Positions 10,484 through 63,878 of a DNA stretch of 64,000 bases are shown here, one piece after another; position 1 is the stretch's first letter; every line of letters begins with the position of its first letter. Both the position numbers and the translations under genes were made by a program. The notes beneath the pieces are model-generated. The model ran no database searches, was not told the DNA's origin, and saw nothing but the letters and a program-made list of their open reading frames with translations. Source of the stretch: Candidatus Krumholzibacteriota bacterium (GTDB lineage Bacteria; Krumholzibacteriota; Krumholzibacteriia; LZORAL124-64-63); the NCBI GenBank assembly GCA_022711765.1, contig JAKLEB010000001.1:1186-65185 (forward strand), given 5' to 3'.

Positions 10484-10651
10484 CGCTGGCGAAAGTTTGG
10501 CGAATACGGTAGCCTGGGGCAGATTCCAGACCCGATGGTCGGAATTCCTGTTGGATGGCGCTGCCAGGCCGCTCTATATTCGCCGCGATTGCTCGAGGGT
10601 CTGGCACGGGTCGGCCTCGTGGGACCGACCCCCGGCGGGAAGACGGGACCG

Positions 10652-50234: not shown

Positions 50235-51067
50235 ACCACGCGGTCCGCCTGCTGCTCGCGGCGCTCGTGGCGGCGCTCGCGGGGTCGTCGCTGGCGGCGG
50301 GCGCCGCCGGCCAGGCCCTACCGGACTCGACGTCGCGCAGCGACGTCGAGTCCGATTCCACGACGGTGCGCGCACTGGCGGCGCCGCCGTTCGCGATCGG
50401 CGAGCGGCTCGTCTTCTCCCTGGATTACGGTCCGGTGAACGCGGGCGAGGGCGTGCTCGAGGTGGTCGGCCTGGTCGACGTGCAGGGCCGGCCGTGCTAC
50501 CGGATCGAGAGCACGGCGACCAGCAACCGGTTCTTCTCCGGCTTCTACAAGGTGCGCGACAAGGTGATCAGCTACGTCGACCGCGAGGGTCTGTTCAGCC
50601 GGTACTTCATGAAGCGCCTGCGCGAGGGGACGTACCGCAAGACGGAGGAGATCGAGTTCGACCACGCGGCCGGCCTGGCGCGCTACGACAACGGCAAGGT
50701 GTACGACATCACGCCGGGCGTCCACGACGTCCTGTCGGCCTTCTACTTCGTGCGAACGCTGGACCTCGAGGTGGGGCGGGACGTATTCTTGTCCGCGCAC
50801 AGCTCGCGGAAGACCTACGACATGCGGGTCATCGTCCATCGCCAGGAGGCGGTGGAAACGGATTTCGGGACGTTCGACTGCTTCGTGATCCAGCCGATCA
50901 TGATGGACGAGGGTCTCTTCAAGCACGAAGGCGATCTGATGATCTACCTGACCGCGGACGACCGCCGGATCCCGGTGTTGATGACCACCAAGCTGCCGGT
51001 CGGCAACATCGCGGCCCACCTGCGCGAGCACGAGCCGGGTCGGCCCGCCGGCGGCGAGGGGGATTGA
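50231..51067 (+). CDS. DUF3108-domain exported protein
   Basis: 278 aa. AGGAGAG ribosome-binding site. Signal peptide. The DUF3108-like core (GERLVFSLDYGPVNAGEGVLEV...YRIESTATSNRFFSGFYKVRDKV...) is a family often found in envelope/LPS loci. Confidence 0.6.
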   Translation: MNHAVRLLLAALVAALAGSSLAAGAAGQALPDSTSRSDVESDSTTVRALAAPPFAIGERLVFSLDYGPVNAGEGVLEVVGLVDVQGRPCYRIESTATSNRFFSGFYKVRDKVISYVDREGLFSRYFMKRLREGTYRKTEEIEFDHAAGLARYDNGKVYDITPGVHDVLSAFYFVRTLDLEVGRDVFLSAHSSRKTYDMRVIVHRQEAVETDFGTFDCFVIQPIMMDEGLFKHEGDLMIYLTADDRRIPVLMTTKLPVGNIAAHLREHEPGRPAGGEGD

Positions 51068-51071
51068 CGGC

Positions 51072-52652
51072 GTGGGCGCTCGCGATCGCACGTTCGACGT
51101 TCCGGCGCTTTCCCGCGCCTGGCTGGAGCCCGCCGATCCCGTGGCCGCCACGCCGGGCGTCCGGTACCTGATGCTCGTCGGATCGCTGGCCCTCGTCCTG
51201 CGGCTCTGGCGCCTCGACGCGATGTCCCTGTGGGTCGACGAGGTGTTCACCTGGGAGCTGGTCGCGCCGGGGCGCGGCTTTCGATTCGTCCCGCACATCC
51301 TCGCCGCCTACCAGGGGCCGCTCTATCACGCCGCGGTCTGGCCGCTCGTCCGCCTGCAGGACTCGGCCTTCCTGCTGCGGCTGCCCGCCGCGGTCGCCGG
51401 CGTGCTCGCCGTGCCCTGCCTCGGCGTGTTCACAGCCCGGCTCTGGGGGAGGCAGGCCGGGCGGCTGGCGGCGCTGCTCCTGGCGGTCAGCCCGTTCGCG
51501 ATCTGGTACTCGCAGGAGGCGCGCGGCTACAGCTTCCTGATCCTGTTCGCGGTCGCGGCCGGCATCGTCCTGGTCGATGCGCTCCGCTTGGGGATCACGC
51601 GCGGCCGCGCGGTCGCGCTCGCGCTGCTCGGGTTCGGCGGGCTGGGCAGCAACTTCGCATTCGTCTTCCTGCTGGCCGCCTTCGCGCTCACGGTGGCCGC
51701 GATCGCCAGACCGCAGCGGCCGGGGCAGTGGCTCTGGTGGGCGATCGCCTGCGGCGGCGGCTTCGTGCTCGCGGCGCCCTGGCTGCTGGAAGCGGCCGGG
51801 ATCTGGGAGGTGGGGCGCGTGATCCCGGGCACGGCGACCGGCGAAGCGCTGCGAGGGTCGACGACGTTCGATCCGTGGGCGCTGCCGTTCACGGGGTTCG
51901 CGCTGTTCTACGGATTCAGCCTGGGGCCCTCGCTCGCCGACCTGCACGGCGCCGATCCGCTCGCGGCGGTCCGCGCCAACCTGCCGGTCATCGGCGCCGG
52001 CGTGGTCGCGGCCGCCGCGGCGCTCCTGCCGGCCCTGGCGCGGCTCGACCGGCGGCGGTGGGTGGTCGCGCTGTGGGTGGTGGTCCCGCTGCTGGGCGTC
52101 GTGCTGCTCGCGGTGCGGAACGTGAAACCGTACAACGTCCGCTATGCGGCGACCGTGTTCCCCTGGCTGCTCGCCCTGACGGCGGCCGGGATCGGCCGGT
52201 ACGGGCGCCGCGGCCGGGCGATCGTGAGCGTTGCCCTGCTCGCGCTCTGCGGCGCCTCGCTCGCCGGCTATTATGGCCAGGACCGTTACGCCAAGGAGGA
52301 CGTCCGGGGCGCCGTGGCGGCCCTGGATCCGAGGGAGGCGCCCGGCCGGCCGATCCTCGCGCCGACCGTCGGACCGGTGGTCCGCCACTACTGGCGCGGT
52401 CGGGGCCCTGTCCTCGGCTGCTGGGACGAGCCGCAGGTTCGGGACGCGGCGATGGCCGATCGACTCGTCGCCCGGCAGCTCGGCGACCATGACTCGGCCT
52501 GGATCGTCACCGCCCGGCCGTGGTTCCAGGACCCGCAACGGCTGTTGCCCGACGCGCTCGCTCGCGCCGGCACCCTGGAGCGGATCCACGACGGTCCGGG
52601 CGTCGCGGTGGACCTCTGGCGCCGGCGCGGCGATCCGGGGGGCGCGCCGTGA
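51072..52652 (+). CDS. GT39/GT83-like glycosyltransferase (ArnT / PMT family, polyprenyl-phosphate sugar dependent)
   Basis: 526 aa with about 11 transmembrane helices. The N-terminal loop carries the DE motif (SLWVDEVFTWE). The SPFAIWYSQEARGYSF region is ArnT-like. The start is uncertain. Confidence 0.65.
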   Translation: MGARDRTFDVPALSRAWLEPADPVAATPGVRYLMLVGSLALVLRLWRLDAMSLWVDEVFTWELVAPGRGFRFVPHILAAYQGPLYHAAVWPLVRLQDSAFLLRLPAAVAGVLAVPCLGVFTARLWGRQAGRLAALLLAVSPFAIWYSQEARGYSFLILFAVAAGIVLVDALRLGITRGRAVALALLGFGGLGSNFAFVFLLAAFALTVAAIARPQRPGQWLWWAIACGGGFVLAAPWLLEAAGIWEVGRVIPGTATGEALRGSTTFDPWALPFTGFALFYGFSLGPSLADLHGADPLAAVRANLPVIGAGVVAAAAALLPALARLDRRRWVVALWVVVPLLGVVLLAVRNVKPYNVRYAATVFPWLLALTAAGIGRYGRRGRAIVSVALLALCGASLAGYYGQDRYAKEDVRGAVAALDPREAPGRPILAPTVGPVVRHYWRGRGPVLGCWDEPQVRDAAMADRLVARQLGDHDSAWIVTARPWFQDPQRLLPDALARAGTLERIHDGPGVAVDLWRRRGDPGGAP

Positions 52653-53338
52653 GCCGCGGGAACATCTACGACGGCCGCGGCGGCTACGAGGCCTATATCG
52701 CGGAGGTCAGCGCGGGGTACGATCGCCCGGAAGGATGGTGGTACCGGTTCGCCAAGCGGACCGTCGACCTGATCGCCGCCCTCTTCGGCCTGCTCCTGTT
52801 GATCCCGCTCCTGCCGTTCATCATCGCGATGATCAAGCTCGAGACGAGCGGCCCGGTGCTGTTCAACCAGGTGCGCGTGGGCAAGCGAGGCCGCCTCTTC
52901 TGCTGCCACAAGTTCCGTTCGATGAGCGTGGACGCGGAGGCGCGGAAGGACGAGCTCGCGCACCTCAACGAGGCGACCGGGGCGGCGTTCAAGATCAAGA
53001 ACGACCCGCGCGTGACGCGGGTCGGCCGGTTCCTGCGCCGCAGCAGCCTCGACGAGTTTCCGCAGCTGTGGAACGTCCTTCGCGGCGAGATGTCGATCGT
53101 CGGACCCCGGCCGCAGATCCCCGACGAGGTCGCGGAGTACACTCCGCAGCAGGCGCTCCGCCTGCTCGCCACGCCCGGTCTGACCTGCCTCTGGCAGGTG
53201 TCCGGCCGTAGCCACCTCGATTTCGCCGAGTGGATGGCGCTCGACCAGGAGTACGTCCGCAAGCGCGGGTTGCGCTACGAGCTGGGCATCCTGCTGCGGA
53301 CCCTGCCCGCGGTGATCGAGCGCAAGGGGGCGTACTGA
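52649..53338 (+). CDS. Monotopic phosphoglycosyl transferase (bacterial sugar transferase, PglC/WbaP C-terminal type)
   Basis: 229 aa from a GTG overlapping the upstream stop. One re-entrant helix (LIAALFGLLLLIPLLPFIIAMI). Catalytic motifs KFRSM, DELPQ-like (DEFPQLWNVLRGEMSIVGPRP) and PGLTCLWQVSGR. Confidence 0.85.
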   Translation: MSRGNIYDGRGGYEAYIAEVSAGYDRPEGWWYRFAKRTVDLIAALFGLLLLIPLLPFIIAMIKLETSGPVLFNQVRVGKRGRLFCCHKFRSMSVDAEARKDELAHLNEATGAAFKIKNDPRVTRVGRFLRRSSLDEFPQLWNVLRGEMSIVGPRPQIPDEVAEYTPQQALRLLATPGLTCLWQVSGRSHLDFAEWMALDQEYVRKRGLRYELGILLRTLPAVIERKGAY

Positions 53339-53715
53339 TGGGCGTCGCCGGCCTCGGCACGGACATCATCCGGGTCGACCGCATCGCGGCGATCGTCGAG
53401 CGGCATGGCGACCGGTTCCTGCGCAGGGTCTACCGGCCGGACGAGCTGGCGGTGCTCACGCGGGTCGGCGCGGCCGCCTACGCGGCGCTCGCCGCTCGCT
53501 GGGCGGCCAAGGAGGCCTTCCTCAAGGCTCTGGGACCACGCTCGGCGAACGTCCCGTATCGGGACGTGGAGGTGGTCCGGGGCGCGGCGGGAGAGCCGTG
53601 GCTCCGCCTGCACGGCGCCGCGGCGCGCGCCCTCGCGGATCTCGGCGCCACGAGGGCGCTGGTGTCGCTGAGCCACGAGGGGGACCACGCCGTCGCCACC
53701 GTGATCCTCGTCTGA
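53338..53715 (+). CDS. acpS: Holo-[acyl-carrier-protein] synthase
   Basis: 125 aa, MGVAGLGTDIIRVDRI...WAAKEAFLKALG. The ATG overlaps the upstream TGA. Confidence 0.85.
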   Translation: MGVAGLGTDIIRVDRIAAIVERHGDRFLRRVYRPDELAVLTRVGAAAYAALAARWAAKEAFLKALGPRSANVPYRDVEVVRGAAGEPWLRLHGAAARALADLGATRALVSLSHEGDHAVATVILV

Positions 53716-53837
53716 GACCGGCGGGATGCCCGCCGCCGCGCCGCCGGGCAAACCTGTTGTCTTCACCCCGCCAAGATCCTATGCTACCGTCCCGTTGTCC
53801 GCTGGCGCGGTGTCGCGCCGGCGAGGAGCCTGGAACC

Positions 53838-54752
53838 GTGACCCAGCTGGAATTCCTGCTCATCGATGTCTTCACGGACCGCCCCTTCGGAGGCAGCCGG
53901 CTGACGGTCTTTCCCGATGCCGGCAGTCTCCCGTCCGTCGTCATGCAGCAGCTCGCGCAGGAGCTCGGCCAGGGCGAGACGGCGTTCGTGCTGGGGTCTG
54001 TCCCGGCGAACGCCCTGCGAGCGCCCCTGCGGGTCTTCACGCCGCAGGTGGAGATCCCCTTCGGCGGCCACTCGCTGCTCGGCGCGGCGTTCGCGATGGA
54101 CGTCCTGGGGCGGCGATCGGCCGCCGATCCGTCCGTGCCGCGCGTGTGGGAGCTCGAGGCGGGCCATTACGAGGTGACGACCCGCGGCACCGGCCAGGGC
54201 ATGATCTACAGCCTGCGCGTGGATCCGCCCGCGTTTCTCGGCGAGTACTACCACCGGGGCAAGGTCGCGCGTGCGCTCGGACTCGAGGAGAGCGAGCTCG
54301 CCATCACGGGCCTGCCCTGCGAGATCATCTCGACGGGCCTGCCCATCCACATCGTGCCGGTCGGCTCGCTGAGCGCGGTGAAGCGGGCGCGGCTGCGGCA
54401 GCGGGAGGCGGAGGCGATCGCGCGCGACCTCGGCTTCGGCGATCTGTTCCTCTTCACCTTCGAGACCGAAAGCCCCGAGGCCACCGTGCACTGCCGGATG
54501 TTCGCGCCCAACTTCGGCATCCCCGAAGACCCCGCCAGCGGCACGGCCTTCGGGTCGCTGGCCGCCTACCTCGTGAAGCACCGGCTGGCGCGCGCGAGCG
54601 AGACCCTGGCGTTCGTCGGCGAGCAAGGCCTGGAGATGGGACGCTCCAGCCGCCTGTTCGTCGAGGCTTCGATCCGCGGCGGCCGGGCTGTCGACATCCG
54701 CGTGGGCGGCCAGTGCGTCCTCGTGGGCAGCGGCCACTTGCAGCTGCCCTGA
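53838..54752 (+). CDS. PhzF-family (diaminopimelate-epimerase-fold) isomerase-like protein
   Basis: 304 aa from the GTG at 53838. N-terminus LEFLLIDVFTDRPFGGSRLTVF, GETAFVL, and the second-half motif MFAPNFGIPEDPASGTAFGSLAAYL. Confidence 0.75.
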   Translation: MTQLEFLLIDVFTDRPFGGSRLTVFPDAGSLPSVVMQQLAQELGQGETAFVLGSVPANALRAPLRVFTPQVEIPFGGHSLLGAAFAMDVLGRRSAADPSVPRVWELEAGHYEVTTRGTGQGMIYSLRVDPPAFLGEYYHRGKVARALGLEESELAITGLPCEIISTGLPIHIVPVGSLSAVKRARLRQREAEAIARDLGFGDLFLFTFETESPEATVHCRMFAPNFGIPEDPASGTAFGSLAAYLVKHRLARASETLAFVGEQGLEMGRSSRLFVEASIRGGRAVDIRVGGQCVLVGSGHLQLP

Positions 54753-54857: not shown

Positions 54858-56513
54858 ATGACCAGACCAGCCGGACTGGCGCCCGAGATGACGGACATGA
54901 TGGTGCAGACGCTCAGACAGGTCGTGCAGCGCGAGCTGCCCGACGCGAGGGTCCTCGAGCTCGACGAGAAGGACCTCTTCCCGCACGACCTCATCGAGAA
55001 GCTCCTGTCGCCGGAGGTCGGCCTGCACCTGATCTTCCTGCCCGAATCCGCGGGCGGCCTCGGAGGCGGCGCGCGCGATATCTGCCGGGTCAGCGAGGAG
55101 ATGGCGGCCGTGGACCTCGGGGTCGCCACGGCCTTCCTCGCGATCTGCCTGGGCACGGACCCGATCCTGGTCGGCGGCACCGAGGCCCAGAAGAACCTGT
55201 GGCTGCCCAGGATCGCGCAGGGCCTGATCGTGGCGTACGGCGTGACCGAGCCCGAGGCCGGCAGCAACGTCGCGGCGCTGAAGACGATCGCCGAGCCGGT
55301 CGCGGACGCGGCCGGCCGCGTCACCGCCTATCGGCTCAACGGCGCCAAGCAGTGGATCACGAACGGCGGCGTGGCGCAGCTGTACACGATCCTCGCCAAG
55401 GCGCCGGGCGGTCCGACCTTCTTCATCGTCGAGCGCGGCACGCCGGGCCTCTCGGCGGGAAAGAAGGAGGAGAAGCACGGGATCCGGGCCTCCAACACCG
55501 CCTCGGTCATCCTCGAGGACGTCGTGGTCCCGGCCGAGAACCTGGTCGGCGGCGTGGAGGGCGAGGGTCTCAAGCAGGCCAACGCCGTCTTCGGCTACAC
55601 GCGCCTGATGGTGGGAGCGTTCGGTCTCGGCTGCGGTCAGGGCGCCCTCGATCGCGCGCTGCGCTACGGGAAGGAGCGCATCCAGTTCGGGGCGCCGCTC
55701 GTGGAGAAGGAGGGCTACCTGCTCAAGCTCATCGTCCCGCCCTGGATCGACCTGTGCGCCGGTCGCGCCTACGTCGAGGACATCGCCCTGCGGATCGACG
55801 GCGGCGAGGACGGATTGCAGGTCGAGGGGTCGATCGCCAAGCTCTGGTGCACCGAGGCGGGCAACCGCGCGGCCGATGCCGCGATCCAGGCGCTGGGCGG
55901 CTACGGGTACAGCCGGGAATACATGGTCGAGAAGATGCGGCGCGACGTGCGCATCACCTCGATCTACGAGGGGACGAGCGAGATCCAGCAGAACATCATC
56001 GGCGTGTTCCGCTGGAAGGAGACCGTGCGCGGCAAGGGCGAGATCTACGCCGCCATGGCGGCGGCCTGCGACGACGCCCATGCGGCGCGTCCCGACTGCG
56101 GCGGCGACCTCGCCGCGGCGGCCCTGCGCGGCCTCGGCGACGTGATCCTCGACGCGCACGAGACGAAGGCGATCCGCCACCAGATCGTCCAGTTCTCGCT
56201 CGCCGACGTGGCCTGCCGCTGCGAGGTCGCGTCCGCGCTCGCGCGCAAGGCGGTACGCCTCGCGGCGGCGGGCGACGCCGAGGCGACCCTGTTCGCTGCC
56301 GCGAGCCGGGTCTTCGCCCGCCAGGCGGTCCAGGCGGTCGCGGCCGCCGCGGTCGCGGTCGCGACCGGGTTCTCGACGGGCGACGACCTGGCGAACGTCC
56401 GGCGTGGCCGCGATCTCGCGGCCCGGATCGAGGGCCGGATCGGGCCCGGAGCGCTTGCCGGGCTCTGGACGGACCTGACCGTCGTGGGTGACCTGCTGAA
56501 GCAGCGCGGCTGA
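54858..56513 (+). CDS. Acyl-CoA dehydrogenase with about 150-aa C-terminal extension
   Basis: 551 aa. GGAGG ribosome-binding site. Acyl-CoA dehydrogenase N/M/C domains (YGVTEPEAGSNVAALKTIAE, QWITNGGVA, and the catalytic-base region IYEGTSEIQQNII) are followed by an Ala-rich helical extension. Confidence 0.85.
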   Translation: MTRPAGLAPEMTDMMVQTLRQVVQRELPDARVLELDEKDLFPHDLIEKLLSPEVGLHLIFLPESAGGLGGGARDICRVSEEMAAVDLGVATAFLAICLGTDPILVGGTEAQKNLWLPRIAQGLIVAYGVTEPEAGSNVAALKTIAEPVADAAGRVTAYRLNGAKQWITNGGVAQLYTILAKAPGGPTFFIVERGTPGLSAGKKEEKHGIRASNTASVILEDVVVPAENLVGGVEGEGLKQANAVFGYTRLMVGAFGLGCGQGALDRALRYGKERIQFGAPLVEKEGYLLKLIVPPWIDLCAGRAYVEDIALRIDGGEDGLQVEGSIAKLWCTEAGNRAADAAIQALGGYGYSREYMVEKMRRDVRITSIYEGTSEIQQNIIGVFRWKETVRGKGEIYAAMAAACDDAHAARPDCGGDLAAAALRGLGDVILDAHETKAIRHQIVQFSLADVACRCEVASALARKAVRLAAAGDAEATLFAAASRVFARQAVQAVAAAAVAVATGFSTGDDLANVRRGRDLAARIEGRIGPGALAGLWTDLTVVGDLLKQRG

Positions 56514-56515
56514 CC

Positions 56516-58645
56516 ATGGACCGGGATGCCGTCAACCTGCCGGCGGGCCTGTCCCCGGAGGACGACCGCGACCTCGCGCGGCTGGCTCGCGGCATCGCGG
56601 AGCGCGGGCTCACGGCGCCCGCGATCGTCGCTCTGAGCTGCCTGAAGCCGGCCGCCTTCCTGGGCGGCCAGGCCCTGCGGTTCATCGCGCCGCTCTTGAC
56701 GACGGCGGCCGGAGGCCGGGACTGGGATCGCTTCGCCCAGCTCCTCGAGGTCCGCGGCTCGGTCGAGCGCCTGCTCGCCCATCTCGAGGCCCTGCCGCTG
56801 GCGCTCGCGGAGCGCGAGCCCCGCCCGATCCCGGCGGGTTCCGCCTACGTGATCGTCGATTGCGGCTCGACCACGACGAAAGCGGTGCTGCTCGCCCACC
56901 GTGAGGGACGCTACCGGCTCGCCGGTCGGGCGGAGGCGCCGACCACGGTCGAGGCGCCGGTCGAGGACGTGATGGTCGGCGTACGCGCCGCCCTGCGCCT
57001 GCTGCAGGACCAGACGGGCCACGTGATCCTCGCGGACGACGGGACCGGCCTCGCTGCGGCCCGCGGTCCGGCTGCCGGCGTCGGCGCGTTCCTGGCGACC
57101 AGCAGCGCCGGCGGCGGGCTGCAGATGCTGGTCGTCGGGCTCGTGCGGGCCATGACCGCCGCGAGCGCCGAGCGCGCGGCCCTCGGCGCCGGCGCCATCG
57201 TGATCGACGTCGTCGCCTGGAACGACGATGAGGACGCCTCCTCGCGGCTCCGGCGGCTCCGGCGTTGCCGGCCCGACATGGTCCTGCTCGCCGGCGGCGC
57301 CGACGACGGAGCGGTCACCCAGGTGGTGGCGCTCGCCGAACTCCTCGTGGCCGCCGATCTGCGCCCGCGCTGGGGCGACGGACCGCTGCCCGTCGTGTTC
57401 GCCGGCAACCGGCACGCCGCCCCGGCCGTGATCGCGACCTTCGGCGAGCGGGCTGAGGTCGCGGTCGCGGCGAACCTGCGGCCGGATCTGGAGACGGAGC
57501 GGCTGCAGCCGGTGCGCCGCGTCCTGCACGACGTGTTCCTGCGCCACGTCATGGCGCGGGCTCCCGGGTACCCGGATCTGCAACGGCTATGCACGGCGCC
57601 GGTCGTGCCGACGCCGGCCGCGTTCGGCGAGGCGCTCGACCTGTTGGCCGACAGCCAGGGCGGCCAGGCCGTCGCCGTCGACCTGGGCGGCGCCACCTGC
57701 GACGTCTTCAGCGTGCGCGACGGACAGGTCTTCCGCAGCGTGTCGGCCAATCTCGGCCTCAGCTTCAGCCTGGGCGCGGTCTGCCAGCGCGCGGGCTGGG
57801 GAAACGTGGCCCGCTGGCTGCCGTTTGCCGTCGACGAGGGGGATCTGCGCGACCGCGTCCGCAACAAGATGATCCGGCCGACCACGCTGCCCCAGACTCC
57901 CGAGGACCTCCTGCTCGAGCAAGCCGCGGCGCGCGAGGCGCTGCGGCTCGCGCTCCTCGACCATGACCGGGCGTTGCAGCCGCTCCGCGGCGGACGCGAC
58001 GGACCGACCGGGGTGGACGCGCTGCTCGAGCCCGAGTCGCCGCCGACCGGGGTGAGCTGGCCGGCGGTGCGGCTCCTGCTGGGCTCCGGCGGGCCGCTCG
58101 CTCACGCGCCGGCGCGGCGGCAAGCGGCGGCGATCCTGATCGACGCCTGTCGTCCCGAGGGAGTCACCGAGCTGGCGGTCGACTCGGTCTTCGTGCTGCC
58201 GCACCTCGGCGTCCTGCGCCAGGTGGATGCCGACGCGGCGGCCGTGGTGCTCGCCGCCGACGCCATCGTCGGGCTGGGCACCTGCATCGCGCCGGTCGGC
58301 GACCGGCCGGCGCCGGCGAACGCGCTGCTCGCGGACGTCTCGATCGCGGACGCGCAGGGCGGCGGCGATCCGGTCACGCTGATCCTGCACGGAGGCGAGC
58401 TGATTCGCGTCGCGCTCGACGCGGGCGAGGAACGGCAGGTCGAGGTCGCTCCGCGAGCGGGCTGGGATTTCGGCGCCGGGCCGGGCCGCGCGGTCCAGGC
58501 GCTCGTGCGTGGCGGCGAGGCCGGGCTCGTGCTCGACGGCCGCGGCCGAGAGCTGCCGTGGCCGGCCGCGGAACTCGACCGCCGGACGCTGGCGCGGTCC
58601 TGGCTGGCGGCGCTGTCCGCGCTGCCGGAAGGGATGTCCGCATGA
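56516..58645 (+). CDS. Actin-fold (ASKHA) ATPase, GlmL/MutL- or BadF/BcrAD-activase-like, with N- and C-terminal extensions
   Basis: 709 aa. The ATG lies 3 nt after the acyl-CoA dehydrogenase stop. Two ASKHA phosphate-binding loops are present (YVIVDCGSTTTKAVLL and VAVDLGGATCDVFSV), plus LLAGGADDG. The fold is a glutamate-mutase-L-like duplicated actin fold. Confidence 0.6.
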   Translation: MDRDAVNLPAGLSPEDDRDLARLARGIAERGLTAPAIVALSCLKPAAFLGGQALRFIAPLLTTAAGGRDWDRFAQLLEVRGSVERLLAHLEALPLALAEREPRPIPAGSAYVIVDCGSTTTKAVLLAHREGRYRLAGRAEAPTTVEAPVEDVMVGVRAALRLLQDQTGHVILADDGTGLAAARGPAAGVGAFLATSSAGGGLQMLVVGLVRAMTAASAERAALGAGAIVIDVVAWNDDEDASSRLRRLRRCRPDMVLLAGGADDGAVTQVVALAELLVAADLRPRWGDGPLPVVFAGNRHAAPAVIATFGERAEVAVAANLRPDLETERLQPVRRVLHDVFLRHVMARAPGYPDLQRLCTAPVVPTPAAFGEALDLLADSQGGQAVAVDLGGATCDVFSVRDGQVFRSVSANLGLSFSLGAVCQRAGWGNVARWLPFAVDEGDLRDRVRNKMIRPTTLPQTPEDLLLEQAAAREALRLALLDHDRALQPLRGGRDGPTGVDALLEPESPPTGVSWPAVRLLLGSGGPLAHAPARRQAAAILIDACRPEGVTELAVDSVFVLPHLGVLRQVDADAAAVVLAADAIVGLGTCIAPVGDRPAPANALLADVSIADAQGGGDPVTLILHGGELIRVALDAGEERQVEVAPRAGWDFGAGPGRAVQALVRGGEAGLVLDGRGRELPWPAAELDRRTLARSWLAALSALPEGMSA

Positions 58646-59784
58646 GCGTCGGCCGCACCGGTCCCTTCCTCGAGCCGTGCGCCGTGCTGAGCCGGCGGCG
58701 CTGTTTGCCGATGCCTGGCGAGGTCCTGCTCGAGATCGGCGACCGCGTGCTGGGCGACACCGTGGTCGCGCGCGCGCCCGGACGCGGCGAGCTCCACGCG
58801 GTGAATGCGGTCAGAGCCCTGGACATCCTGCCCGCGGAGCTCCCGGCCGCGCTCGTGGTGAAGGTCGGCGACCGCGTCGAGGCGGGCGCGCCGCTGGCGC
58901 GGACTCGCGGCCTGTGGGGTCTCTTCCGGGCGGTCTGCCGCGCGCCGGTCGCGGGCACGGTGGCGGCGGTGTCCGCCCACACGGGGCGCGTCCTGCTCGA
59001 GGAACCGGCCATGGCGCACGAGGTGCGCGCGTTCCTGCCGGGCGTCGTCACGGCCGTCGAGCCGGGACGCGGGGTGACGGTGGCGGGCTGGGCGGCGCGG
59101 GCCGCCGGAGTGTTCGGAGTGGGCGACGAGCGCAGCGGGCCGCTCCTGCCCGTCGTGGGCCGGCCGGACGCCACGCTCGACGCCGCGCAGATCGGCAGCG
59201 ACGTGGCCGGCTGCGTCCTGCTGGGAGGCGCCGTGGTCACGGCGGACGCCCTGACGCGCGCGGCGGCCCTCGGTGCGCACGGCGTGATCACCGGCGGCAT
59301 CCGCGACGTCGATCTCGCCTCATGGCTGGGGTGCGAGACCGTGCTCGCCGACACGACCGGCCTGTCCCCGCCGCTCACCCTGGTCGTCATCGGCGGCTTC
59401 GGCCGCGTGCCCATGGACGCCGAGACCTTCGCCCTGTTGCACCGGTTCGCCGGGCGCCGCGCGTGCGTGGTGGGGCGCACGCGGGTCCGCGCCAGCGCGG
59501 AACGGCCCGAGGTGATCGTCCCGCTCTCGCCCGAGCCGGAGACGACGCCGAGCCCGCCGGCGCCGGCGTCGACCCTGCGGGTCGGCAGCCGGGTGCTCGT
59601 GGTGAGTCGGCCCTGGTTCGGCCTGCACGGGCGGGTGGGCCGGTTGCCGGCCGAGCCGTGCCGGATCGAGACCGGCGCGCGCTGCCTCGTGGCGGAGGTC
59701 GACCTCGCGAACGGACGCACGGTCCGCGTGCCGCGCGCGAACCTGGAGATCCTGGCGGATCCCGAGCGGGAGGTCGGCCCGTGA
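58642..59784 (+). CDS. Hypothetical soluble protein (possible barrel-sandwich-hybrid and KOW-like segments)
   Basis: 381 aa from an ATG overlapping the upstream stop (ATGA). VVKVGDRVEAGAPLA is hybrid-motif-like. The C-terminal LRVGSRVLVVSRPWFGLHGRVGRL is KOW-like. No confident family. Confidence 0.45.
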   Translation: MSVGRTGPFLEPCAVLSRRRCLPMPGEVLLEIGDRVLGDTVVARAPGRGELHAVNAVRALDILPAELPAALVVKVGDRVEAGAPLARTRGLWGLFRAVCRAPVAGTVAAVSAHTGRVLLEEPAMAHEVRAFLPGVVTAVEPGRGVTVAGWAARAAGVFGVGDERSGPLLPVVGRPDATLDAAQIGSDVAGCVLLGGAVVTADALTRAAALGAHGVITGGIRDVDLASWLGCETVLADTTGLSPPLTLVVIGGFGRVPMDAETFALLHRFAGRRACVVGRTRVRASAERPEVIVPLSPEPETTPSPPAPASTLRVGSRVLVVSRPWFGLHGRVGRLPAEPCRIETGARCLVAEVDLANGRTVRVPRANLEILADPEREVGP

Positions 59785-60590
59785 CCGGCTGGTGGGACCC
59801 CGCGGTCTGGAACCTCGGCGTGATCATCGCCGCGATGGCCGCGGCGATCCTGTGGGGCATCCACCGCGCGCGGCGCGGCAGCCTGCTGCGCGTGCGCAGG
59901 ATCGCGGGCGTGGAGGCCATGGCGGATGCGGTCGGCCGGGCCACCGAACTCGGGCGGCCGGTCCTCTACGTGGCCGGCGTCACGGATCTCGACGACGTCC
60001 AGACGATCGCGAGCCTCGGCATCCTCGGCGCGGTGGGCCGCCAGACCGCGCGCCACGGCTGCCGGCTCGTGATGCCGACCGACCGCAGCCTGGTCCTCGC
60101 GGCCGCGCGCGAGGTGCTTCGCGAGAGCTACACGGCCGCCGGGCGACCCGACGGCTACACGCCGGACATGGTGACCTACATCTCGGACGACCAGTTCGGC
60201 TTCGCCGCGCGCGTCGACGGCATCATCGCCCGCGACCGGCCAGCGGCGTGTTTCCTGCAGGGCGCCTTCTACGCCGAGTCGCTCCTGGTGGCGGAGGCGG
60301 GCGCCCAGGCCGGGGCGGTGCAGGTCGCCGGCACCGCGATGAGTCACCAGCTGCCGTTCCTCGTGGCGGCCTGCGACCACGTGCTGATCGGCGAGGAGTT
60401 CTTCGCGGCGGAGGCCTACCTCTCGGGCGACCGCGACAAGCTGGGCAGCCTGCGCGGCCAGGACGTGGTGAAGGACCTCGCGCTCGGCCTGGTTCTGATC
60501 GGCGCGGCGCTCGTGACCCTCGCCGCGGCGACCGGCGCCGGCTGGCTCGCGGTCGCGCGCGACGGCATGTTGAGGCTGCTGCAACCGTGA
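59781..60590 (+). CDS. Hypothetical membrane protein
   Basis: 269 aa from a GTG overlapping the upstream stop. N-terminal transmembrane helix (VWNLGVIIAAMAAAILWGI) and C-terminal transmembrane helix (LALGLVLIGAALVTLAAATGAGWLAV). Confidence 0.45.
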   Translation: MTGWWDPAVWNLGVIIAAMAAAILWGIHRARRGSLLRVRRIAGVEAMADAVGRATELGRPVLYVAGVTDLDDVQTIASLGILGAVGRQTARHGCRLVMPTDRSLVLAAAREVLRESYTAAGRPDGYTPDMVTYISDDQFGFAARVDGIIARDRPAACFLQGAFYAESLLVAEAGAQAGAVQVAGTAMSHQLPFLVAACDHVLIGEEFFAAEAYLSGDRDKLGSLRGQDVVKDLALGLVLIGAALVTLAAATGAGWLAVARDGMLRLLQP

Positions 60591-60612
60591 CGCTGCGGAG
60601 GTCGAGGACGCG

Positions 60613-61323
60613 ATGAAACGGCTCGTGCCGCGGGTGATCACCTCGTTCGTCGGGATCCTCCTGATCCTGACTGCGTTCGGCGCGCGCCCCGGCCCCGACG
60701 GCGGCGGCGTGTGGCCAGTGCGCGCGTTCGATTACGTCGACCGCAACTTCTCGGTCTGGTTCAACATCCTGGCGGTCTTCGCCTTCATCCTCGGCGGGGC
60801 GAGCCTGCTGAAGAGCCACGTCGCCAAGGTGGCGCACCGGCGGCCGGACTGGCCTTACTCGGCCGTGACCCTGGTCTCGTTCGTCGGCGTGCTCGCGATC
60901 GGGATGCTCAAGCTCGGCGGGCCGCCCGGCCTGCAGGGCGAGGTGACCGATCCCGGCGCCTGGTTCCAGATCGTCTTCGACGCGATCTACGATCCCCTGC
61001 TCGCGACGCTCTACGCGCTGCTGGCCTTCTTCATCACCTCGGCGGCCTACCGCGCGTTCCGGCTGCGTTCGCCGCAGGCGGCGATCCTGCTCGCGTCCGC
61101 GTTCATCGTCCTGCTCGGCCGCACGCCGCTGGGGACCTGGCTCAGCGACCCGGTGCCGCCGAGCCTCGGCTTCCTCCGATTGGACGCACTCAGCGTGTGG
61201 ATCATGAGCGTCCCGAACCTGGCCGGCCAGCGCGCCGTGCTGATCGGGATCGCGGTCGGGGTGACCGCCCTGACGCTGCGGATCCTCGCGGGCCGCGGCG
61301 AGGTCGACGGAGGTGGCGCATGA
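60613..61323 (+). CDS. Hypothetical polytopic membrane protein
   Basis: 236 aa. GGAGG ribosome-binding site. Five or more predicted transmembrane helices. Confidence 0.5.
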   Translation: MKRLVPRVITSFVGILLILTAFGARPGPDGGGVWPVRAFDYVDRNFSVWFNILAVFAFILGGASLLKSHVAKVAHRRPDWPYSAVTLVSFVGVLAIGMLKLGGPPGLQGEVTDPGAWFQIVFDAIYDPLLATLYALLAFFITSAAYRAFRLRSPQAAILLASAFIVLLGRTPLGTWLSDPVPPSLGFLRLDALSVWIMSVPNLAGQRAVLIGIAVGVTALTLRILAGRGEVDGGGA

Positions 61324-62210
61324 ACGGCGCGGCGCGCGGCGACGTCCTGCAGCGGCTGGGCCGCCTGGACCGCCGGTGGCTCTACCTCGCGCTGTTCGCC
61401 TGCCTGGCGGCGACTCTCTGGCGGCAGCCGCTGTTCCGCGACGGCCTCTCGACCTTCTCGCGTCCCGTCTTCGAGCGGATCGAGGCGTTGCCTCCGGGGG
61501 CGCCGGTCCTGGTGTCGCTGGACTACAGCCCGGCTTCGGCTCCGGAGGTCGAGCCCATGGCGCTCGCGCTGACGCGACACCTCCTGCTGCGCGGCGCGCG
61601 GCCGGTCTTCGTCACGCTCTATCCCGAGGGCAACAACATGCTGCAGCGCCTGCGGGACCAGGCGATCGACGCCGACTTCCCCGAGAGCCGCGAGGGCCGC
61701 GACTGGGTGGCCCTGGGCTACAAGGCGGGCCGGCAGATGGTGATCAACGCCCTGCGGCAGGACCTCGCGACGATGTACTCGGCGGACCTGCGGGGCGCGC
61801 CGATCGATTCCCTGCCGGCGCTCGCGGGTGTCCGGCGGCTCGACGACTTCGCGATCATCCTCGCCCTGTCGAGCGGCACGCCGGGCCTCAAGGAGTGGAT
61901 CCTCTACGGCGGCGATCCGACCGGGACGCCCGTGGCGGGAGGCTGCACCGGCATCGGCGCGCCGGAGTTCCTGGCGTACTTCCCGGGTCAGCTCGTCGGC
62001 CTCCTGGGCGGGCTCAAGGGAGCGAGCGAATACGAAGCCGCGCTCGCCGACCGCTATCCCGAGCGCGCGTTCCCCCGGCGCGCGCAGCTCGCCATGGGTC
62101 CGCAGACCGTGGCGCACGCTCTGATCCTGCTCTTCCTGGTCCTGGGCAACCTGTCCTACCTGCGGCCCCGCCGGCGTTCGCCGGGCCGGCGCGAAGGGAG
62201 GACCGCGTGA
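61320..62210 (+). CDS. Hypothetical bitopic membrane protein with large periplasmic domain
   Basis: 296 aa from an ATG overlapping the upstream stop. Transmembrane helices at both termini (WLYLALFACLAATLW ... VAHALILLFLVLGNLSYL). Confidence 0.45.
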   Translation: MNGAARGDVLQRLGRLDRRWLYLALFACLAATLWRQPLFRDGLSTFSRPVFERIEALPPGAPVLVSLDYSPASAPEVEPMALALTRHLLLRGARPVFVTLYPEGNNMLQRLRDQAIDADFPESREGRDWVALGYKAGRQMVINALRQDLATMYSADLRGAPIDSLPALAGVRRLDDFAIILALSSGTPGLKEWILYGGDPTGTPVAGGCTGIGAPEFLAYFPGQLVGLLGGLKGASEYEAALADRYPERAFPRRAQLAMGPQTVAHALILLFLVLGNLSYLRPRRRSPGRREGRTA

Positions 62211-62881
62211 GCAGCAGCCTCGAGGTCTGGATCGCCGCGGCGCTCTCCCTGATGGTGCTGAGCTTCCTGTGGCGCGACAATCCGGCCTACAAGTTCGCCG
62301 AGCACCTCTTCGTCGGCGTCTCGGCCGGTTACTGGATGGTCATGGGCTTCTGGTCCACGCTCTGGCCCAACGCCGTGGTCAAGCTCGTCCCGAGCGCGGC
62401 CAGGCTCACCGAACCCGCCGGCCCCGTGCCGGCGCGCGAGCCCCTGGTGCTGGTGCCGCTCGTGCTCGGCATCCTGATGCTCCTGCGGCTGTGGCCCCGC
62501 CTGTCGTGGCTGGCTCGCTGGCCGACGGCCTTCGCCGTCGGCACCACTCTCGGCTACAATCTCGTGCGGTACGTGCGCTCGGACTTCCTCGCGCAGATCC
62601 ACGCGACGGTGGCGCCAGGACTGCTCGTGACGAGCGGCGGCGCCGTGAACTGGGTGGCGACCTGCAATCAGTGGCTGATCGTGGCAGGCACCGCGAGCGG
62701 CGTCGTGTACTTCACGTACACGCGGGGCGGAGCCGGCCTGCGCGGCGGCGTTGCGCGCGGCGGCCTGGTCGTGCTGATGGTGGCGTTCGGCGCCAGCTTC
62801 GCGTACGCGGTCATGGCCCGCGTCGCGGTGCTCGTCGGCAGGCTGCAGTTCCTTTTGGGCGACTGGCTCGGACTCGTCTGA
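62207..62881 (+). CDS. Hypothetical polytopic membrane protein
   Basis: 224 aa from a GTG overlapping the upstream stop. Six or more transmembrane helices (VWIAAALSLMVLSFLW, LFVGVSAGYWMVMGFW...). Confidence 0.45.
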   Translation: MSSSLEVWIAAALSLMVLSFLWRDNPAYKFAEHLFVGVSAGYWMVMGFWSTLWPNAVVKLVPSAARLTEPAGPVPAREPLVLVPLVLGILMLLRLWPRLSWLARWPTAFAVGTTLGYNLVRYVRSDFLAQIHATVAPGLLVTSGGAVNWVATCNQWLIVAGTASGVVYFTYTRGGAGLRGGVARGGLVVLMVAFGASFAYAVMARVAVLVGRLQFLLGDWLGLV

Positions 62882-62975: not shown

Positions 62976-63878
62976 ATGAGCACTCAAGGACCCGATCCAG
63001 CCGCCCAGATCGCCCACTTCGAGAACCGACTCCAGGCCGACCCGCGGTCGCGCGCGTTCCTGCCGCTCGCGGACCTCTACCGGCGGACCGGCCAGCTGGA
63101 CCGCGCGCGCCAGGTCCTGGAGCGCGGCCTCGAGATCCACCCGCATCTCGTGATCGCGCGGGCTGCCTTCGGCCAGGTCCTCGCCGAACTCGGGGAACCG
63201 GCGGCGGCCACGGACGCGCTGCTCGCGGTCGTCGCCCAGGATCCTGACAATGTGCTCGCGATTCGCCTGCTCGCGCAGTGCGCCGCGGCGCGTGACGACT
63301 GGCCGGCGGCCTGCGAGTGCGGCGAGCGGCTGCTCCGGCTCGAGCCGGACGACCCGGGCGCTCGCGAGACCGTGCGCGAGGCCAGGCGGCGCCTGGGGAC
63401 CGCGGCGCCCGCGCCCGACGCGCCGCGGCCGCCATCGACGCCGTCGGCGCCGTCGCCGGCCCGCGCGGCGCCCTCCCCGGCCCCTGACCCCGCCGGCGGG
63501 GTCAGGCCGGAATCCGGCCGGCTGCGGGTCGGCGACGGTTTCGAGACGCCGACCCTCGCCGATCTCTACCTCCGGCAGGGTCATCCGGAGAAGGCTCGCG
63601 CCATCCTCGAACGCATCCTGGCGGCCGAGCCGGATCGCGCGGACGCGCTCGAGGTCATGGCCCGGCTGGAGGCGCGGAGGCCTCCGCTCTCGATCCGTCC
63701 CGGGGCCCAACCACCGGGCGGCGACGGGAGCGAGAAGCCGGTCCAGGCGCCGCCCCGGACGGAGCCCCCGCCGCCTCCCGCGGAGCCGACCCCGGCGCCT
63801 GGCGGTCGCGGGCAGGATCTCGATCGATTCCGGGCCTGGCTGGATACCGCGGCCGAGCCGCGCGACACCGCGGGCTGA
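62976..63878 (+). CDS. TPR-repeat protein with Pro/Ala-rich linker
   Basis: 300 aa from the ATG at 62976. TPR helices (LADLYRRTGQLDRARQVLERGLEIHP...; LADLYLRQGHPEKARAILERILAAEP) flank a PAPDAPRPPSTPSAPSPARAAPSPAPDP low-complexity linker. Confidence 0.6.
   Translation: MSTQGPDPAAQIAHFENRLQADPRSRAFLPLADLYRRTGQLDRARQVLERGLEIHPHLVIARAAFGQVLAELGEPAAATDALLAVVAQDPDNVLAIRLLAQCAAARDDWPAACECGERLLRLEPDDPGARETVREARRRLGTAAPAPDAPRPPSTPSAPSPARAAPSPAPDPAGGVRPESGRLRVGDGFETPTLADLYLRQGHPEKARAILERILAAEPDRADALEVMARLEARRPPLSIRPGAQPPGGDGSEKPVQAPPRTEPPPPPAEPTPAPGGRGQDLDRFRAWLDTAAEPRDTAG

What the first reader, a model, noticed from the sequence alone, without database searches (positions are those of the whole stretch)
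54858..62881. Translationally coupled operon: extended acyl-CoA dehydrogenase, a 709-aa GlmL/activase-type actin-fold ATPase and five uncharacterised proteins (four membrane proteins)
Seven consecutive genes are linked by 3-nt gaps or ATGA/GTGA overlaps: acyl-CoA dehydrogenase, ASKHA ATPase, a soluble protein and four membrane proteins. The ATPase has two actin-fold phosphate loops (VIVDCGSTTTKAVLL and VAVDLGGATCDVFSV). These resemble glutamate-mutase accessory protein GlmL and the BadF/BcrAD/HgdC activases that ATP-dependently reduce or activate CoA-ester-metabolising enzymes. However, it lies in no mutase or dehydratase context and carries 100-150-aa extensions at both ends. The 381-aa partner has hybrid-motif and KOW-like segments. 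The remaining four proteins are polytopic or bitopic membrane proteins with no recognisable family. The acyl-CoA dehydrogenase next to an activase-like ATPase suggests a membrane-associated acyl-CoA/redox module or an actin-like membrane-remodelling machine. Either way the gene set does not match a described system.
Basis: partly seen in the sequence, partly recalled or inferred. Interest (0 to 1): 0.7.

Follow-up and report, generated by a model that had tools for sequence, protein, structure and literature searches.

The report
Undescribed ATPase-linked four-subunit membrane system
The operon is real, but its conserved core is not the acyl-CoA dehydrogenase: it is a GlmL-type ATPase, an adaptor protein and four membrane proteins that travel together across at least ten bacterial phyla and match no described system.

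Summary
The seven translationally coupled genes exist as described (in-frame GC3 0.92-0.96; public gene calls agree). Comparison with 35 non-redundant related loci changes the interpretation.

**Not core:** The acyl-CoA dehydrogenase is an ordinary MCAD/VLCAD-like enzyme. It is linked only in the window's own Krumholzibacteria-like clade.

**Conserved unit:**
- A roughly 100-aa helical domain. It is fused to the ATPase here and is a separate gene elsewhere.
- A Pfam MutL (GlmL-superfamily) actin-fold ATPase with a conserved C-terminal extension.
- A 380-aa protein made of a barrel-sandwich hybrid, a swivelling beta/beta/alpha domain and a KOW domain.
- A fixed-order cassette of DUF6754 plus three families with no Pfam model.

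**Structure and topology:** DUF6754 has a cytoplasmic Rossmann-like domain with an invariant acidic pocket, held between two transmembrane helices. In most relatives it also carries periplasmic FN3 or beta-propeller domains. The third cassette protein is predicted to place an alpha/beta domain in the periplasm.

**Distribution:** Cassettes occur in tandem copies beside a single ATPase/adaptor pair, or apart from that pair.

**Negative results:** I found no solved structure, no paper and no named system that matches.

**Best reading (inferred):** an ATP-driven cytoplasmic module acts on an envelope-facing inner-membrane complex. The function is unknown.

The parts
54858..56513 (+). g1, acyl-CoA dehydrogenase with a C-terminal extension of about 170 aa. 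It is a clade-specific neighbour, not part of the conserved system.
   Evidence: Acyl-CoA_dh_N/M/1 match residues 12-382. The best PDB relatives are MCAD and butyryl-CoA dehydrogenase at E about 1e-64. Long forms such as 2z1q, 3owa and VLCAD also match. The IYEGTSEIQ catalytic-Glu motif is present. g1 is linked to g2 only in L001, L002, L005, L007 and L008.
56516..56845 (+). S-domain: the N-terminal 110 aa of g2, a helical domain of about 80-100 aa.
   Evidence: It is encoded as a separate small ORF directly upstream of the ATPase in L021, L022, L023, L025, L030, L034, L038 and L041. It is fused in the Krumholzibacteria-like clade. It is absent beside solo g2 homologues. It has no Pfam match.
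56846..58255 (+). g2 core: MutL/GlmL-superfamily ASKHA ATPase (residues 111-580).
   Evidence: PF13941 E = 3e-105. All GlmL NCBIfam models score below their cut-offs. Invariant motifs are D115-x-G-S-T-x-x-K122, T195-SSAGGG and D389-x-GGAT-x-D396. No solved relative was found by sequence.
58256..58645 (+). g2 C-terminal extension (residues 581-709), specific to this ATPase subfamily.
   Evidence: It is conserved at about 50% identity across phyla. Invariant residues are G627, P646, D651, G653, G655, G657, G666-G667, G670, D674, R676-G677 and W696. It has no Pfam or PDB match.
58642..59784 (+). g3, a soluble three-domain partner: barrel-sandwich hybrid (residues about 5-130), swivelling beta/beta/alpha domain (about 134-295) and KOW/SH3-like domain (about 315-372).
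59781..60590 (+). g4, DUF6754 subunit: TM helix (8-28), cytoplasmic six-stranded Rossmann-like domain (about 40-215), TM helix (231-251).
60613..61323 (+). g5, polytopic membrane subunit (about 6 TM, N-in). It has a variable periplasmic insertion site between TM3 and TM4.
   Evidence: Hydropathy is and the alignment. Insertions bring relatives to 499-649 aa. There is no Pfam or PDB relative.
61320..62210 (+). g6, bitopic-type subunit: TM (19-39), an alpha/beta-patterned domain predicted to be periplasmic, TM (260-280) carrying invariant Q262, H266 and N277.
   Evidence: Alignment is and hydropathy with flanking charges. There is no Pfam or PDB relative.
62207..62881 (+). g7, polytopic membrane subunit (about 6 TM, N-out). 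It has an invariant cytoplasmic loop: S19-F-L-x-x-D24-N25-x-x-Y28-K29-x-x-E32.
   Evidence: Alignment is and hydropathy. There is no Pfam or PDB relative.
62976..63878 (+). TPR protein downstream. It is a neighbour only in the Krumholzibacteria-like clade and is not core.
   Evidence: TPR Pfam families hit the JGI gene call. It is found after g7 in L001-L009 only.

Best explanation
The locus encodes a conserved multi-component inner-membrane system that has not been described before. Its core is a four-subunit membrane complex with about 16 TM helices in total.

**The membrane complex**
- g4 (DUF6754) holds a cytoplasmic Rossmann-like domain with an invariant acidic pocket between two TM helices.
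- g5 and g7 are six-TM subunits.
- g6 places an alpha/beta domain in the periplasm between two TM helices.
- In most relatives the complex also carries periplasmic FN3 repeats or a BamB-like beta-propeller on g4, and large periplasmic inserts in g5.

**The cytoplasmic module**
- A MutL/GlmL-superfamily actin-fold ATPase (g2).
- A small helical S-domain, fused to g2 here.
- An adaptor (g3) built of a barrel-sandwich hybrid, a swivelling domain and a KOW domain.

**Proposed mechanism**
- g2 and g3 together contain the two modules that are joined in one chain in the diol-dehydratase reactivase DdrA: an ASKHA ATPase and a swivelling domain.
- I propose that g2 and g3 bind and release, or remodel, the cytoplasmic Rossmann-like domain of g4 in an ATP-dependent cycle.
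- That change would pass through the membrane subunits to the periplasmic domains, driving or resetting an envelope-directed activity such as transport or handling of a periplasmic or cell-surface substrate.

**Shown:** gene reality, conservation, order, domain folds, topology signals, the conserved ATPase motifs, and that the ACAD is not core.

**Inferred:** physical association, who contacts whom, the direction of energy flow, and the substrate.
For: - **Fixed cassette order.** g4-g5-g6-g7 keep the same order in 29 of the 35 non-redundant g4-bearing loci. Two of the six exceptions are cut off too short after g4 to tell. The loci come from Krumholzibacteria-like, WOR-3, Coatesbacteria, Stahlbacteria, Ignavibacteriales, Sumerlaeota, Muiribacteriota, Myxococcota, Gemmatimonadota and Planctomycetota lineages.
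- **Linkage of the ATPase pair.** g2 and g3 lie in the same locus in 20 of the 35. That includes 10 loci outside the window's clade, usually directly upstream.
- **S-domain.** It is fused to g2 here and is a separate upstream gene in eight other loci, which is fusion evidence that S and g2 work together. It is absent where g2 stands alone.
- **Shared module.** One g2/g3 pair sits beside two or three tandem cassettes in L013 and L038. This fits a shared cytoplasmic module.
- **Tight coupling.** The 4-nt start/stop overlaps are typical of subunits made together.
- **Active ATPase.** The ATPase motifs are invariant across phyla.
- **Ligand-site pattern in g4.** The conserved residues cluster at the C-terminal strand ends of a confident Rossmann-like model. 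The acidic residues D69, D71, D135 and D136 are lost together in diverged paralogous cassettes. This suggests that they form one site.
- **Topology.** Signal peptide + FN3, FN3 repeats or a PQQ/BamB propeller precede TM1 of DUF6754 in relatives. This places its Rossmann-like domain in the cytoplasm and shows that the complex faces the periplasm.
- **Family size.** The family has 2441 clusters at 50% identity.
Against: - No direct evidence shows that g2/g3 bind the membrane complex.
- In WOR-3, Gemmatimonadota, Zixibacteria and other loci the cassette has no g2/g3 within 10 kb. g3 or g2-g3 also occur alone. Coupling could therefore be loose, or regulatory rather than mechanical.
- No GlmL-family protein has an experimentally defined mechanism (my knowledge; no papers were found).
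- The g4 fold match is generic.
- The periplasmic location of the g6 domain rests only on the positive-inside rule.
- No substrate clue came from neighbours, riboswitches or fused domains.
Confidence: 0.42

Rival explanations
1. Reactivase or maturation chaperone. The membrane complex would be an enzyme or transporter that works by itself. g2/g3/S would be a GlmL/DdrAB/EutA-like ATP-dependent factor that inserts, exchanges or repairs a cofactor or subunit in the g4 Rossmann-like domain, needed only occasionally.
For: - g2 is in the MutL/GlmL superfamily.
- g3 supplies the swivelling domain found in DdrA.
- One g2/g3 pair serves several cassettes, and cassettes occur far from g2/g3. This is the pattern expected for an accessory factor.
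Against: - No B12 enzyme, B12-binding DxHxxG motif, Fe-S Cys cluster or heme-type ligand set is conserved in g4-g7. Only C198 in g4 and H266 in g6 are invariant.
- No cobalamin riboswitch was found.
- GlmL equivalog models score far below their cut-offs.
- Tight translational coupling to g4 here suggests stoichiometric production.
Confidence: 0.22
2. Independent ion or solute transporter. g4-g7 would form a secondary or ion-translocating transporter. The cytoplasmic Rossmann-like domain would be regulatory, like KTN/RCK or transhydrogenase dIII. g2/g3 would be only a metabolic or regulatory neighbour.
For: - Invariant polar residues lie in or near TM helices: g6 Q262, H266 and N277; g7 E32 and R94.
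- The cassette is autonomous in many genomes.
Against: - No internal or inverted repeats typical of transporters were found in g5 or g7, and there is no homology between them.
- Large FN3 and beta-propeller ectodomains are unusual for small-solute carriers.
- g2/g3 are linked in 10 loci outside the window's clade.
Confidence: 0.15
3. Actin-like cytoskeletal or membrane-remodelling machine. g2 would polymerise on the membrane complex.
For: g2 has the actin/ASKHA fold motifs. ASKHA-fold proteins such as FtsA, PilM, MreB and GspL are known membrane-machine components (my knowledge).
Against: - There are no Pfam hits to the MreB, FtsA, ParM or actin families. g2 belongs to the hydantoinase/GlmL branch, which is enzymatic or chaperone-like and not known to polymerise.
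- Nothing here tests polymerisation.
Confidence: 0.08
4. Membrane-associated acyl-CoA/redox module. The ACAD would deliver electrons or an acyl-CoA substrate to an activase-like ATPase and membrane partners.
For: The ACAD stop codon lies 2 nt before the g2 start. This arrangement is kept in five close relatives.
Against: - The ACAD is absent next to the system in every lineage outside the Krumholzibacteria-like clade.
- g2 fails both activase tests (Pfam score and Cys pair).
- g3 lacks the NADH, FMN and Fe-S domains of RnfC, and there are no RnfA/D/E/G-like subunits.
- The ACAD is an ordinary MCAD/VLCAD-like enzyme.
Confidence: 0.04

Closest known systems
GlmL/MutL, the glutamate (methylaspartate) mutase accessory protein (Pfam PF13941; NCBIfam NF040745, NF040744, TIGR01319)
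   Same: g2 residues 111-580 match the whole MutL Pfam model (353 bits). The DxGST..K and DxGGAT.D motifs are the same.
   Different: - g2 scores 187, 173 and 111 bits against cut-offs of 475, 600 and 204 for the GlmL, Or-4 and GlmL-family models.
- There is no mutase or aminomutase nearby.
- g2 has a conserved 129-aa C-terminal extension and an S-domain.
- It is paired with g3 and a membrane cassette, which is not the case for canonical GlmL.
Diol/glycerol dehydratase reactivase DdrAB (PDB 2d0o) and EutA-type reactivases
   Different: - Here the ATPase and swivelling domain are on two polypeptides.
- g3 adds a hybrid barrel and a KOW domain.
- There is no B12 enzyme, B12 motif or cobalamin riboswitch.
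- The presumed client is an integral membrane complex.
NqrA/RnfC N-terminal domain of the Na+-NQR and Rnf complexes
   Different: - g3 has no Complex1_51K, SLBB or 4Fe-4S domains.
- g5 and g7 show no similarity to RnfA/E or NqrD/E and have no internal repeats.
- No flavin or Fe-S signatures are present.
Trans-envelope machines with an ASKHA-fold cytoplasmic part (PilM-PilN-PilO, GspL) or with mechanotransmission (FtsEX, MacB/LolCDE). This is an analogy recalled from memory, not tested here.
   Same: A cytoplasmic nucleotide-binding protein is coupled through bitopic or polytopic inner-membrane proteins to periplasmic domains.
   Different: No sequence or fold relationship was detected. The ATPase is from the hydantoinase/GlmL branch. 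The membrane subunits are new families.
DUF6754 (PF20539)
   Same: g4 is a full-length member (328 bits).
   Different: The family is uncharacterised. The window's protein is a minimal form lacking the FN3 or beta-propeller ectodomains that most members carry.

Membership tests
Pfam MutL (PF13941) superfamily | Match to the family HMM above the gathering score (27 bits) over the full model | tested here: met
   352.9 bits, model positions 1-447 of 450, residues 111-580.
GlmL, methylaspartate mutase accessory protein (NF040745 equivalog) | Score at or above the curated cut-off of 475 bits | tested here: not met
   186.8 bits. Or-4 scores 172.8 against 600, and TIGR01319 scores 111.3 against 204.
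GlmL, methylaspartate mutase accessory protein | Encoded between or next to B12-dependent mutase subunits (glmS/glmE or aminomutase genes) | tested here: not met
   No such genes lie within 10 kb on either side on the source contig or in any related locus.
BadF/BcrAD/HgdC activases | Match to PF01869 above the gathering score (31.5 bits) | tested here: not met
   13.1 bits, E = 0.07.
BadF/BcrAD/HgdC activases | Conserved Cys residues that bridge a [4Fe-4S] cluster at the dimer interface | tested here: not met
   Only C116, inside the DCGSTTTK loop, is invariant. The other Cys residues are 25-81% conserved.
DdrAB/EutA-type B12 reactivases | ASKHA ATPase combined with a swivelling domain | tested here: inconclusive
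DdrAB/EutA-type B12 reactivases | A B12-dependent client enzyme in the operon | tested here: not met
   No B12 enzyme. No cobalamin riboswitch.
Rnf/Nqr ion-translocating oxidoreductases | RnfC/NqrA N-terminal barrel-sandwich hybrid | tested here: met
Rnf/Nqr ion-translocating oxidoreductases | NADH/FMN and Fe-S domains in subunit C, plus RnfA/D/E/G (NqrB-E) membrane subunits | tested here: not met
   No Pfam or NCBIfam hits in g3-g7. TIGR01945 scores 15.5 bits against 246.
PEP-utilising enzyme mobile (phospho-His) domain | Swivelling fold with a conserved phosphorylatable His | tested here: not met
Biotinyl/lipoyl carrier domains | Conserved modified Lys in the hairpin of the hybrid barrel | tested here: not met
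   There is no invariant Lys. The equivalent region reads LARxxGFFGLF.
Actin-like filament formers (MreB, ParM, FtsA, MamK) | Family HMM match; ATP-dependent polymerisation | not testable with these tools
   No Pfam hit to those families. Polymerisation cannot be assessed in silico here.
DUF6754 (PF20539) | Match above the gathering score (27 bits) | tested here: met
   g4 scores 328 bits, model positions 5-252 of 257.
Acyl-CoA dehydrogenase | Three ACAD domains and the catalytic Glu motif | tested here: met
   PF02771, PF02770 and PF00441 all exceed their cut-offs. YEGT is present. MCAD matches at E = 1e-64.
Known anti-phage defence systems (PADLOC) | Any component matching a PADLOC model | tested here: not met
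   No hits for g2-g7.

The most novel reading that the evidence does not exclude
This is a new class of ATP-driven envelope machine. A hydantoinase/GlmL-branch actin-fold ATPase, rather than an ABC, AAA+, P-type or rotary ATPase, would work through a hybrid-swivel-KOW adaptor to energise a four-subunit inner-membrane complex built of unannotated protein families. That complex would act on a periplasmic or cell-surface substrate via FN3, beta-propeller and alpha/beta ectodomains. Paralogous cassettes would serve as interchangeable substrate modules.
Probability: 0.3. Interest if true: 0.85.

Novelty: categorically new. Interest (0 to 1): 0.66.

Why it matters
If the inference holds, three points follow.
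- A GlmL-type ATPase would have a defined partner set: an adaptor and a membrane complex. The biochemical role of this family has stayed unclear even in glutamate mutase operons.
- An actin-fold ATPase of the hydantoinase branch would be linked to an integral membrane machine, a coupling for which I know no precedent.
- Four protein families would be grouped into one testable unit: DUF6754 plus three without any Pfam model. DUF6754 alone has about 2400 clusters at 50% identity.

The system occurs in largely uncultured lineages: Krumholzibacteria-like, WOR-3, Zixibacteria, Coatesbacteria, Stahlbacteria, Ignavibacteriales, Gemmatimonadota, Sumerlaeota, Myxococcota and Planctomycetota. Their envelope biology is poorly known.

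The work also corrects annotation. Public records call g2 'glutamate mutase L' or 'methylaspartate mutase', which is misleading here.

Tried and rejected
- **Profile searches against all PDB sequences.** g3, g4, g5, g6 and g7 profiles, and g2 both as a single sequence and as a profile, gave nothing significant. The only signal was a weak KOW match at E about 0.1-0.2.
- **Pfam and NCBIfam on all seven proteins, and Pfam member by member on the g5, g6 and g7 alignments at E <= 10.** There were no consistent weak hits.
- **PADLOC.** No hits.
- **Paralogy tests by hhalign.** g4 against g6, g5 against g7, and the halves of g5 and g7 for inverted repeats all gave probabilities below 2%.
- **Neighbour clustering across loci for a further conserved partner.** None was found. 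The WOR-3 neighbours are housekeeping genes (rpsA, purH, P-II).
- **Domains in g5 inserts and in the small upstream ORFs.** No Pfam hits.
- **Riboswitch or other RNA search of the window and seven loci.** Only one tRNA was found.
- **Promoter and terminator scan.** Nothing was found.
- **Plasmid collection search with g4.** No match.
- **Literature searches.** DUF6754 and PF13941 are in no paper. The TIGR01319/'glutamate mutase L' search found one paper, on radical SAM ThiC, which is unrelated. The two searches with GlmL as a term (with actin/membrane, and with ASKHA) returned nothing on GlmL itself; the first mostly matched unrelated text.

Full report
**1. Observation**

The window has about 71% GC.

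The junctions are:
- g1/g2: a 2-nt gap.
- g2/g3 and g5/g6: ATGA overlaps.
- g3/g4 and g6/g7: GTGA overlaps.
- g4/g5: a 22-nt spacer containing GGAGG.

The window is part of JGI metagenome contig Ga0116154_10000001. The public gene calls there have identical boundaries for g2-g7. The identical g2 protein is named 'glutamate mutase L [Candidatus Krumholzibacteria bacterium]' in NCBI. No sigma-70-like promoter or intrinsic terminator was detected between 53.5 and 64 kb. No Rfam family hits the window.

**2. What each protein is**

*g1.* It is a standard acyl-CoA dehydrogenase. All three ACAD domains match, MCAD and butyryl-CoA dehydrogenase match at E about 1e-64, and the YEGT catalytic motif is present. 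Its C-terminal extension resembles those of long bacterial ACADs and VLCAD.

*g2.* Residues 111-580 match Pfam MutL at 353 bits. It falls well below the curated cut-offs of the three GlmL NCBIfam models. It scores only 13 bits against BcrAD_BadFG. Its phosphate and adenosine motifs are invariant across phyla. Only one Cys, inside the first phosphate loop, is invariant, so there is no activase-type Fe-S site. The C-terminal 129 aa are a conserved, subfamily-specific domain. No solved structure is detectable by sequence.

*g3.* The AF2 model has pLDDT 87.7 and shows three domains:

In 93 homologues there is no invariant His or Lys. This excludes a phospho-His carrier or a biotin/lipoyl carrier.

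The family is very conserved, at about 50% identity between phyla. Mapped on the model's secondary structure, the invariant residues sit at the C-terminal ends of all six strands: G66/D69/D72/T75, P99/R102/S103, Y133/D136/Q138, G161/E166, G184/T185/Q190, C198/D199 and G204/E205/E206. This is the usual place for a ligand or catalytic site. In the diverged second or third cassette copies of L011 and L013, D69, D71, D135 and D136 are replaced together. This suggests that they form a single site.

*g5, g6 and g7.* They have no Pfam, NCBIfam or PDB relatives, even when every alignment member is scanned at E <= 10. They are not paralogues of one another or of g4, and they have no internal repeats.

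**3. Topology**

Family-averaged hydropathy and flanking charges give the following:

| Protein | Topology |
|---|---|
| g4 | N-out, TM 8-28, soluble domain in the cytoplasm, TM 231-251 |
| g5 | Six TM, N-in, variable periplasmic insertion between TM3 and TM4 |
| g6 | N-in (invariant D17-R18 before TM1), alpha/beta-patterned domain outside, TM 260-280 with invariant Q262/H266/N277, basic tail inside |
| g7 | Six TM, N-out, invariant cytoplasmic loop D24-N25-x-x-Y28-K29-x-x-E32 |

The g4 orientation has independent support. Many homologues carry a cleavable-looking signal peptide plus an FN3 domain before TM1. Among the best-scoring 50%-identity representatives, most carry N-terminal extensions of 100-700 aa. 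In those sampled, the extensions contain FN3 repeats or PQQ/BamB-like beta-propellers. The window's g4 is therefore a minimal form. g5 homologues reach 499-649 aa through the periplasmic insertion. The g6 orientation rests only on the positive-inside rule.

**4. Conservation of the neighbourhood**

A scan of one genome per GTDB species with g4 peptides returned 30 loci. Look-ups of homologues added 13 more.

*The cassette.* g4-g5-g6-g7 lie in that order, with short spacers, in 29 of the 35 non-redundant g4-bearing loci; in four more the DNA ends before g7, with the order kept as far as it goes. Of the six loci where g4 is not followed by all three partners:
- L010 and L017 end too soon after g4 to tell.
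- L015 and L019 run through g6 before the sequence ends.
- L024 and L027 (Myxococcota) are orphan g4 genes.
- L026 has an in-frame stop in g4 and no cassette in the 2.5 kb that follow it.

The loci with the cassette come from Krumholzibacteria-like, WOR-3, Coatesbacteria, Stahlbacteria, Ignavibacteriales, Sumerlaeota, Muiribacteriota, Myxococcota, Gemmatimonadota and Planctomycetota lineages and several unclassified ones.

*The ATPase pair.* g2 and g3 are in the same locus in 20 of the 35. That includes 10 loci outside the window's clade: L013, L021, L022, L023, L025, L028, L030, L034, L038 and L041. Ten other loci with at least 6 kb of upstream sequence lack them.

g3 homologues exist elsewhere in WOR-3 genomes, away from the cassette. 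A g2-g3 pair occurs alone in L042, and g2 occurs alone in L039.

*The S-domain.* The N-terminal 110 aa of g2 correspond to a separate small gene directly upstream of the ATPase in eight loci from other phyla. This gene is missing next to solo g2 genes. The fusion in the window is evidence that S and g2 work together.

*Tandem cassettes.* L013 has three cassettes, L011 two and L038 two to three. At most one g2/g3 pair lies beside them.

*Non-core neighbours.* ACAD and PhzF are found only in the five closest relatives (g4 identity 73-79%). The downstream TPR gene is found only in L001-L009.

All-against-all clustering of neighbours found no further conserved partner. The WOR-3 neighbours are rpsA, purH and P-II. 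No riboswitch was found in seven diverse loci.

**5. Mechanism**

*Shown:*
- Six or seven co-inherited gene families.
- An ATPase with intact catalytic motifs.
- A cytoplasmic adaptor with a mobile-domain fold.
- A membrane complex with conserved cytoplasmic and periplasmic elements and variable ectodomains.

*Inferred:* g2, S and g3 dock on the cytoplasmic face, either on the g4 Rossmann-like acidic pocket or on the g7 loop. They would use ATP binding and hydrolysis to switch the complex.

The closest mechanistic precedent is the diol dehydratase reactivase. From established knowledge of DdrAB (PDB 2d0o), an ASKHA ATPase with an inserted swivelling domain exchanges a Rossmann-like subunit in a nucleotide-dependent way. 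Here the two modules are split between g2 and g3, and the candidate client domain is Rossmann-like.

Two readings remain open:
- The cycle energises a periplasm-directed activity. I prefer this because of the stoichiometric-looking coupling, the S fusion, and the ectodomains.
- The cycle only matures or repairs the complex. This is the main rival, favoured by the one-to-many and unlinked arrangements.

The substrate is unknown. FN3 and beta-propeller ectodomains, and the frequent but inconsistent proximity of envelope-glycan genes, hint at an envelope polymer or protein. Those genes are GT9, PMT_2 and Bac_transf upstream in the window; GT4 in L032; TMEM260-like and DegT next to g3 in L036; and UDP-GlcNAc 2-epimerase in L010. 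This is a weak lead only.

**6. Comparison with known systems and novelty**

g2 is a member of the Pfam MutL superfamily but not of the GlmL equivalog. It is not an activase. g3 shares only its first domain with RnfC/NqrA. g4 is a DUF6754 member. The rest have no family.

No hit was found in PADLOC, in the PDB by sequence, or in the plasmid collection. Full-text searches for DUF6754 and PF13941 found no paper; the search for TIGR01319 and 'glutamate mutase L' found a single, unrelated one.

I therefore rate the system as lying outside described kinds. Three caveats apply. Its function is not established. HHpred-level and AFDB-level comparisons could not be run. Subscription-only literature was not searched.

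**7. Verdict**

The ACAD-centred and activase-centred ideas are rejected. The claim of an undescribed conserved gene set is strengthened and redefined as S + ATPase + adaptor + four-gene membrane cassette.

Interest is 0.66. The system is widespread, strongly conserved, made largely of unannotated families and experimentally tractable. However, its mechanism and substrate remain inferential.

Noticed in passing
L013:6457-17147; L011:10001-16374; L038:11132-18925: The g4-g7 cassette occurs in two or three tandem copies. L013 and L038 have one g2/g3 pair beside them. L011 has none within 10 kb upstream of the first cassette or in the 4.4 kb held after the last. The more diverged copies have lost D69, D71, D135 and D136 of DUF6754 together while keeping C198/D199 and the GEE motif.
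   Followed up: partly
L039:10001-17266 (GCA_047502605.1, labelled Synechococcus sp. RC10A2): A solo g2-subfamily ATPase (591 aa, 49% identity) lies a few kb from flagellar rod genes (Flg_bb_rod). The contig is therefore probably not cyanobacterial and may be a co-culture or mis-binned organism. Near-identical proteins are abundant on contigs of about 3 Mb in JGI metagenomes.
   Followed up: no
L026:6338-7246: The DUF6754 gene of this Zixibacteria MAG contains an in-frame stop codon. It could be a pseudogene or a sequencing error. No g5-g7 were detected in the 2.5 kb downstream.
   Followed up: no
L024:9614-10801 and L027:~9866-10726: Two Myxococcota MAG loci carry an orphan DUF6754 gene (50% identity) with no recognisable g5-g7 or g2/g3 within 10 kb on either side.
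   Followed up: partly
L043:5509-12434: A MacB/FtsX-type ABC permease and ATPase pair lies directly upstream, on the same strand, of a cassette whose DUF6754 subunit carries a BamB/PQQ beta-propeller.
   Followed up: no
window 49158-53715: Upstream of PhzF and the ACAD is a run of envelope-biogenesis genes: a GT9 heptosyltransferase-like gene, DUF3108, a PMT_2 (ArnT/GT39-like) membrane glycosyltransferase, a Bac_transf sugar transferase and holo-ACP synthase. Glycan-related genes also neighbour system components in L010, L032 and L036.
   Followed up: partly
L038:6328-8209 and L041:4746-10008: In two related loci the system directly follows the glycine-cleavage genes (gcvT/H/P). An extra unannotated ORF of 140-150 aa lies before the S gene.
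   Followed up: no
window 53829-54752: A PhzF-family isomerase gene sits immediately upstream of the ACAD. It is co-conserved with the ACAD in the five closest relatives only. PhzF and the ACAD may form their own clade-specific unit joined to the system's operon.
   Followed up: partly
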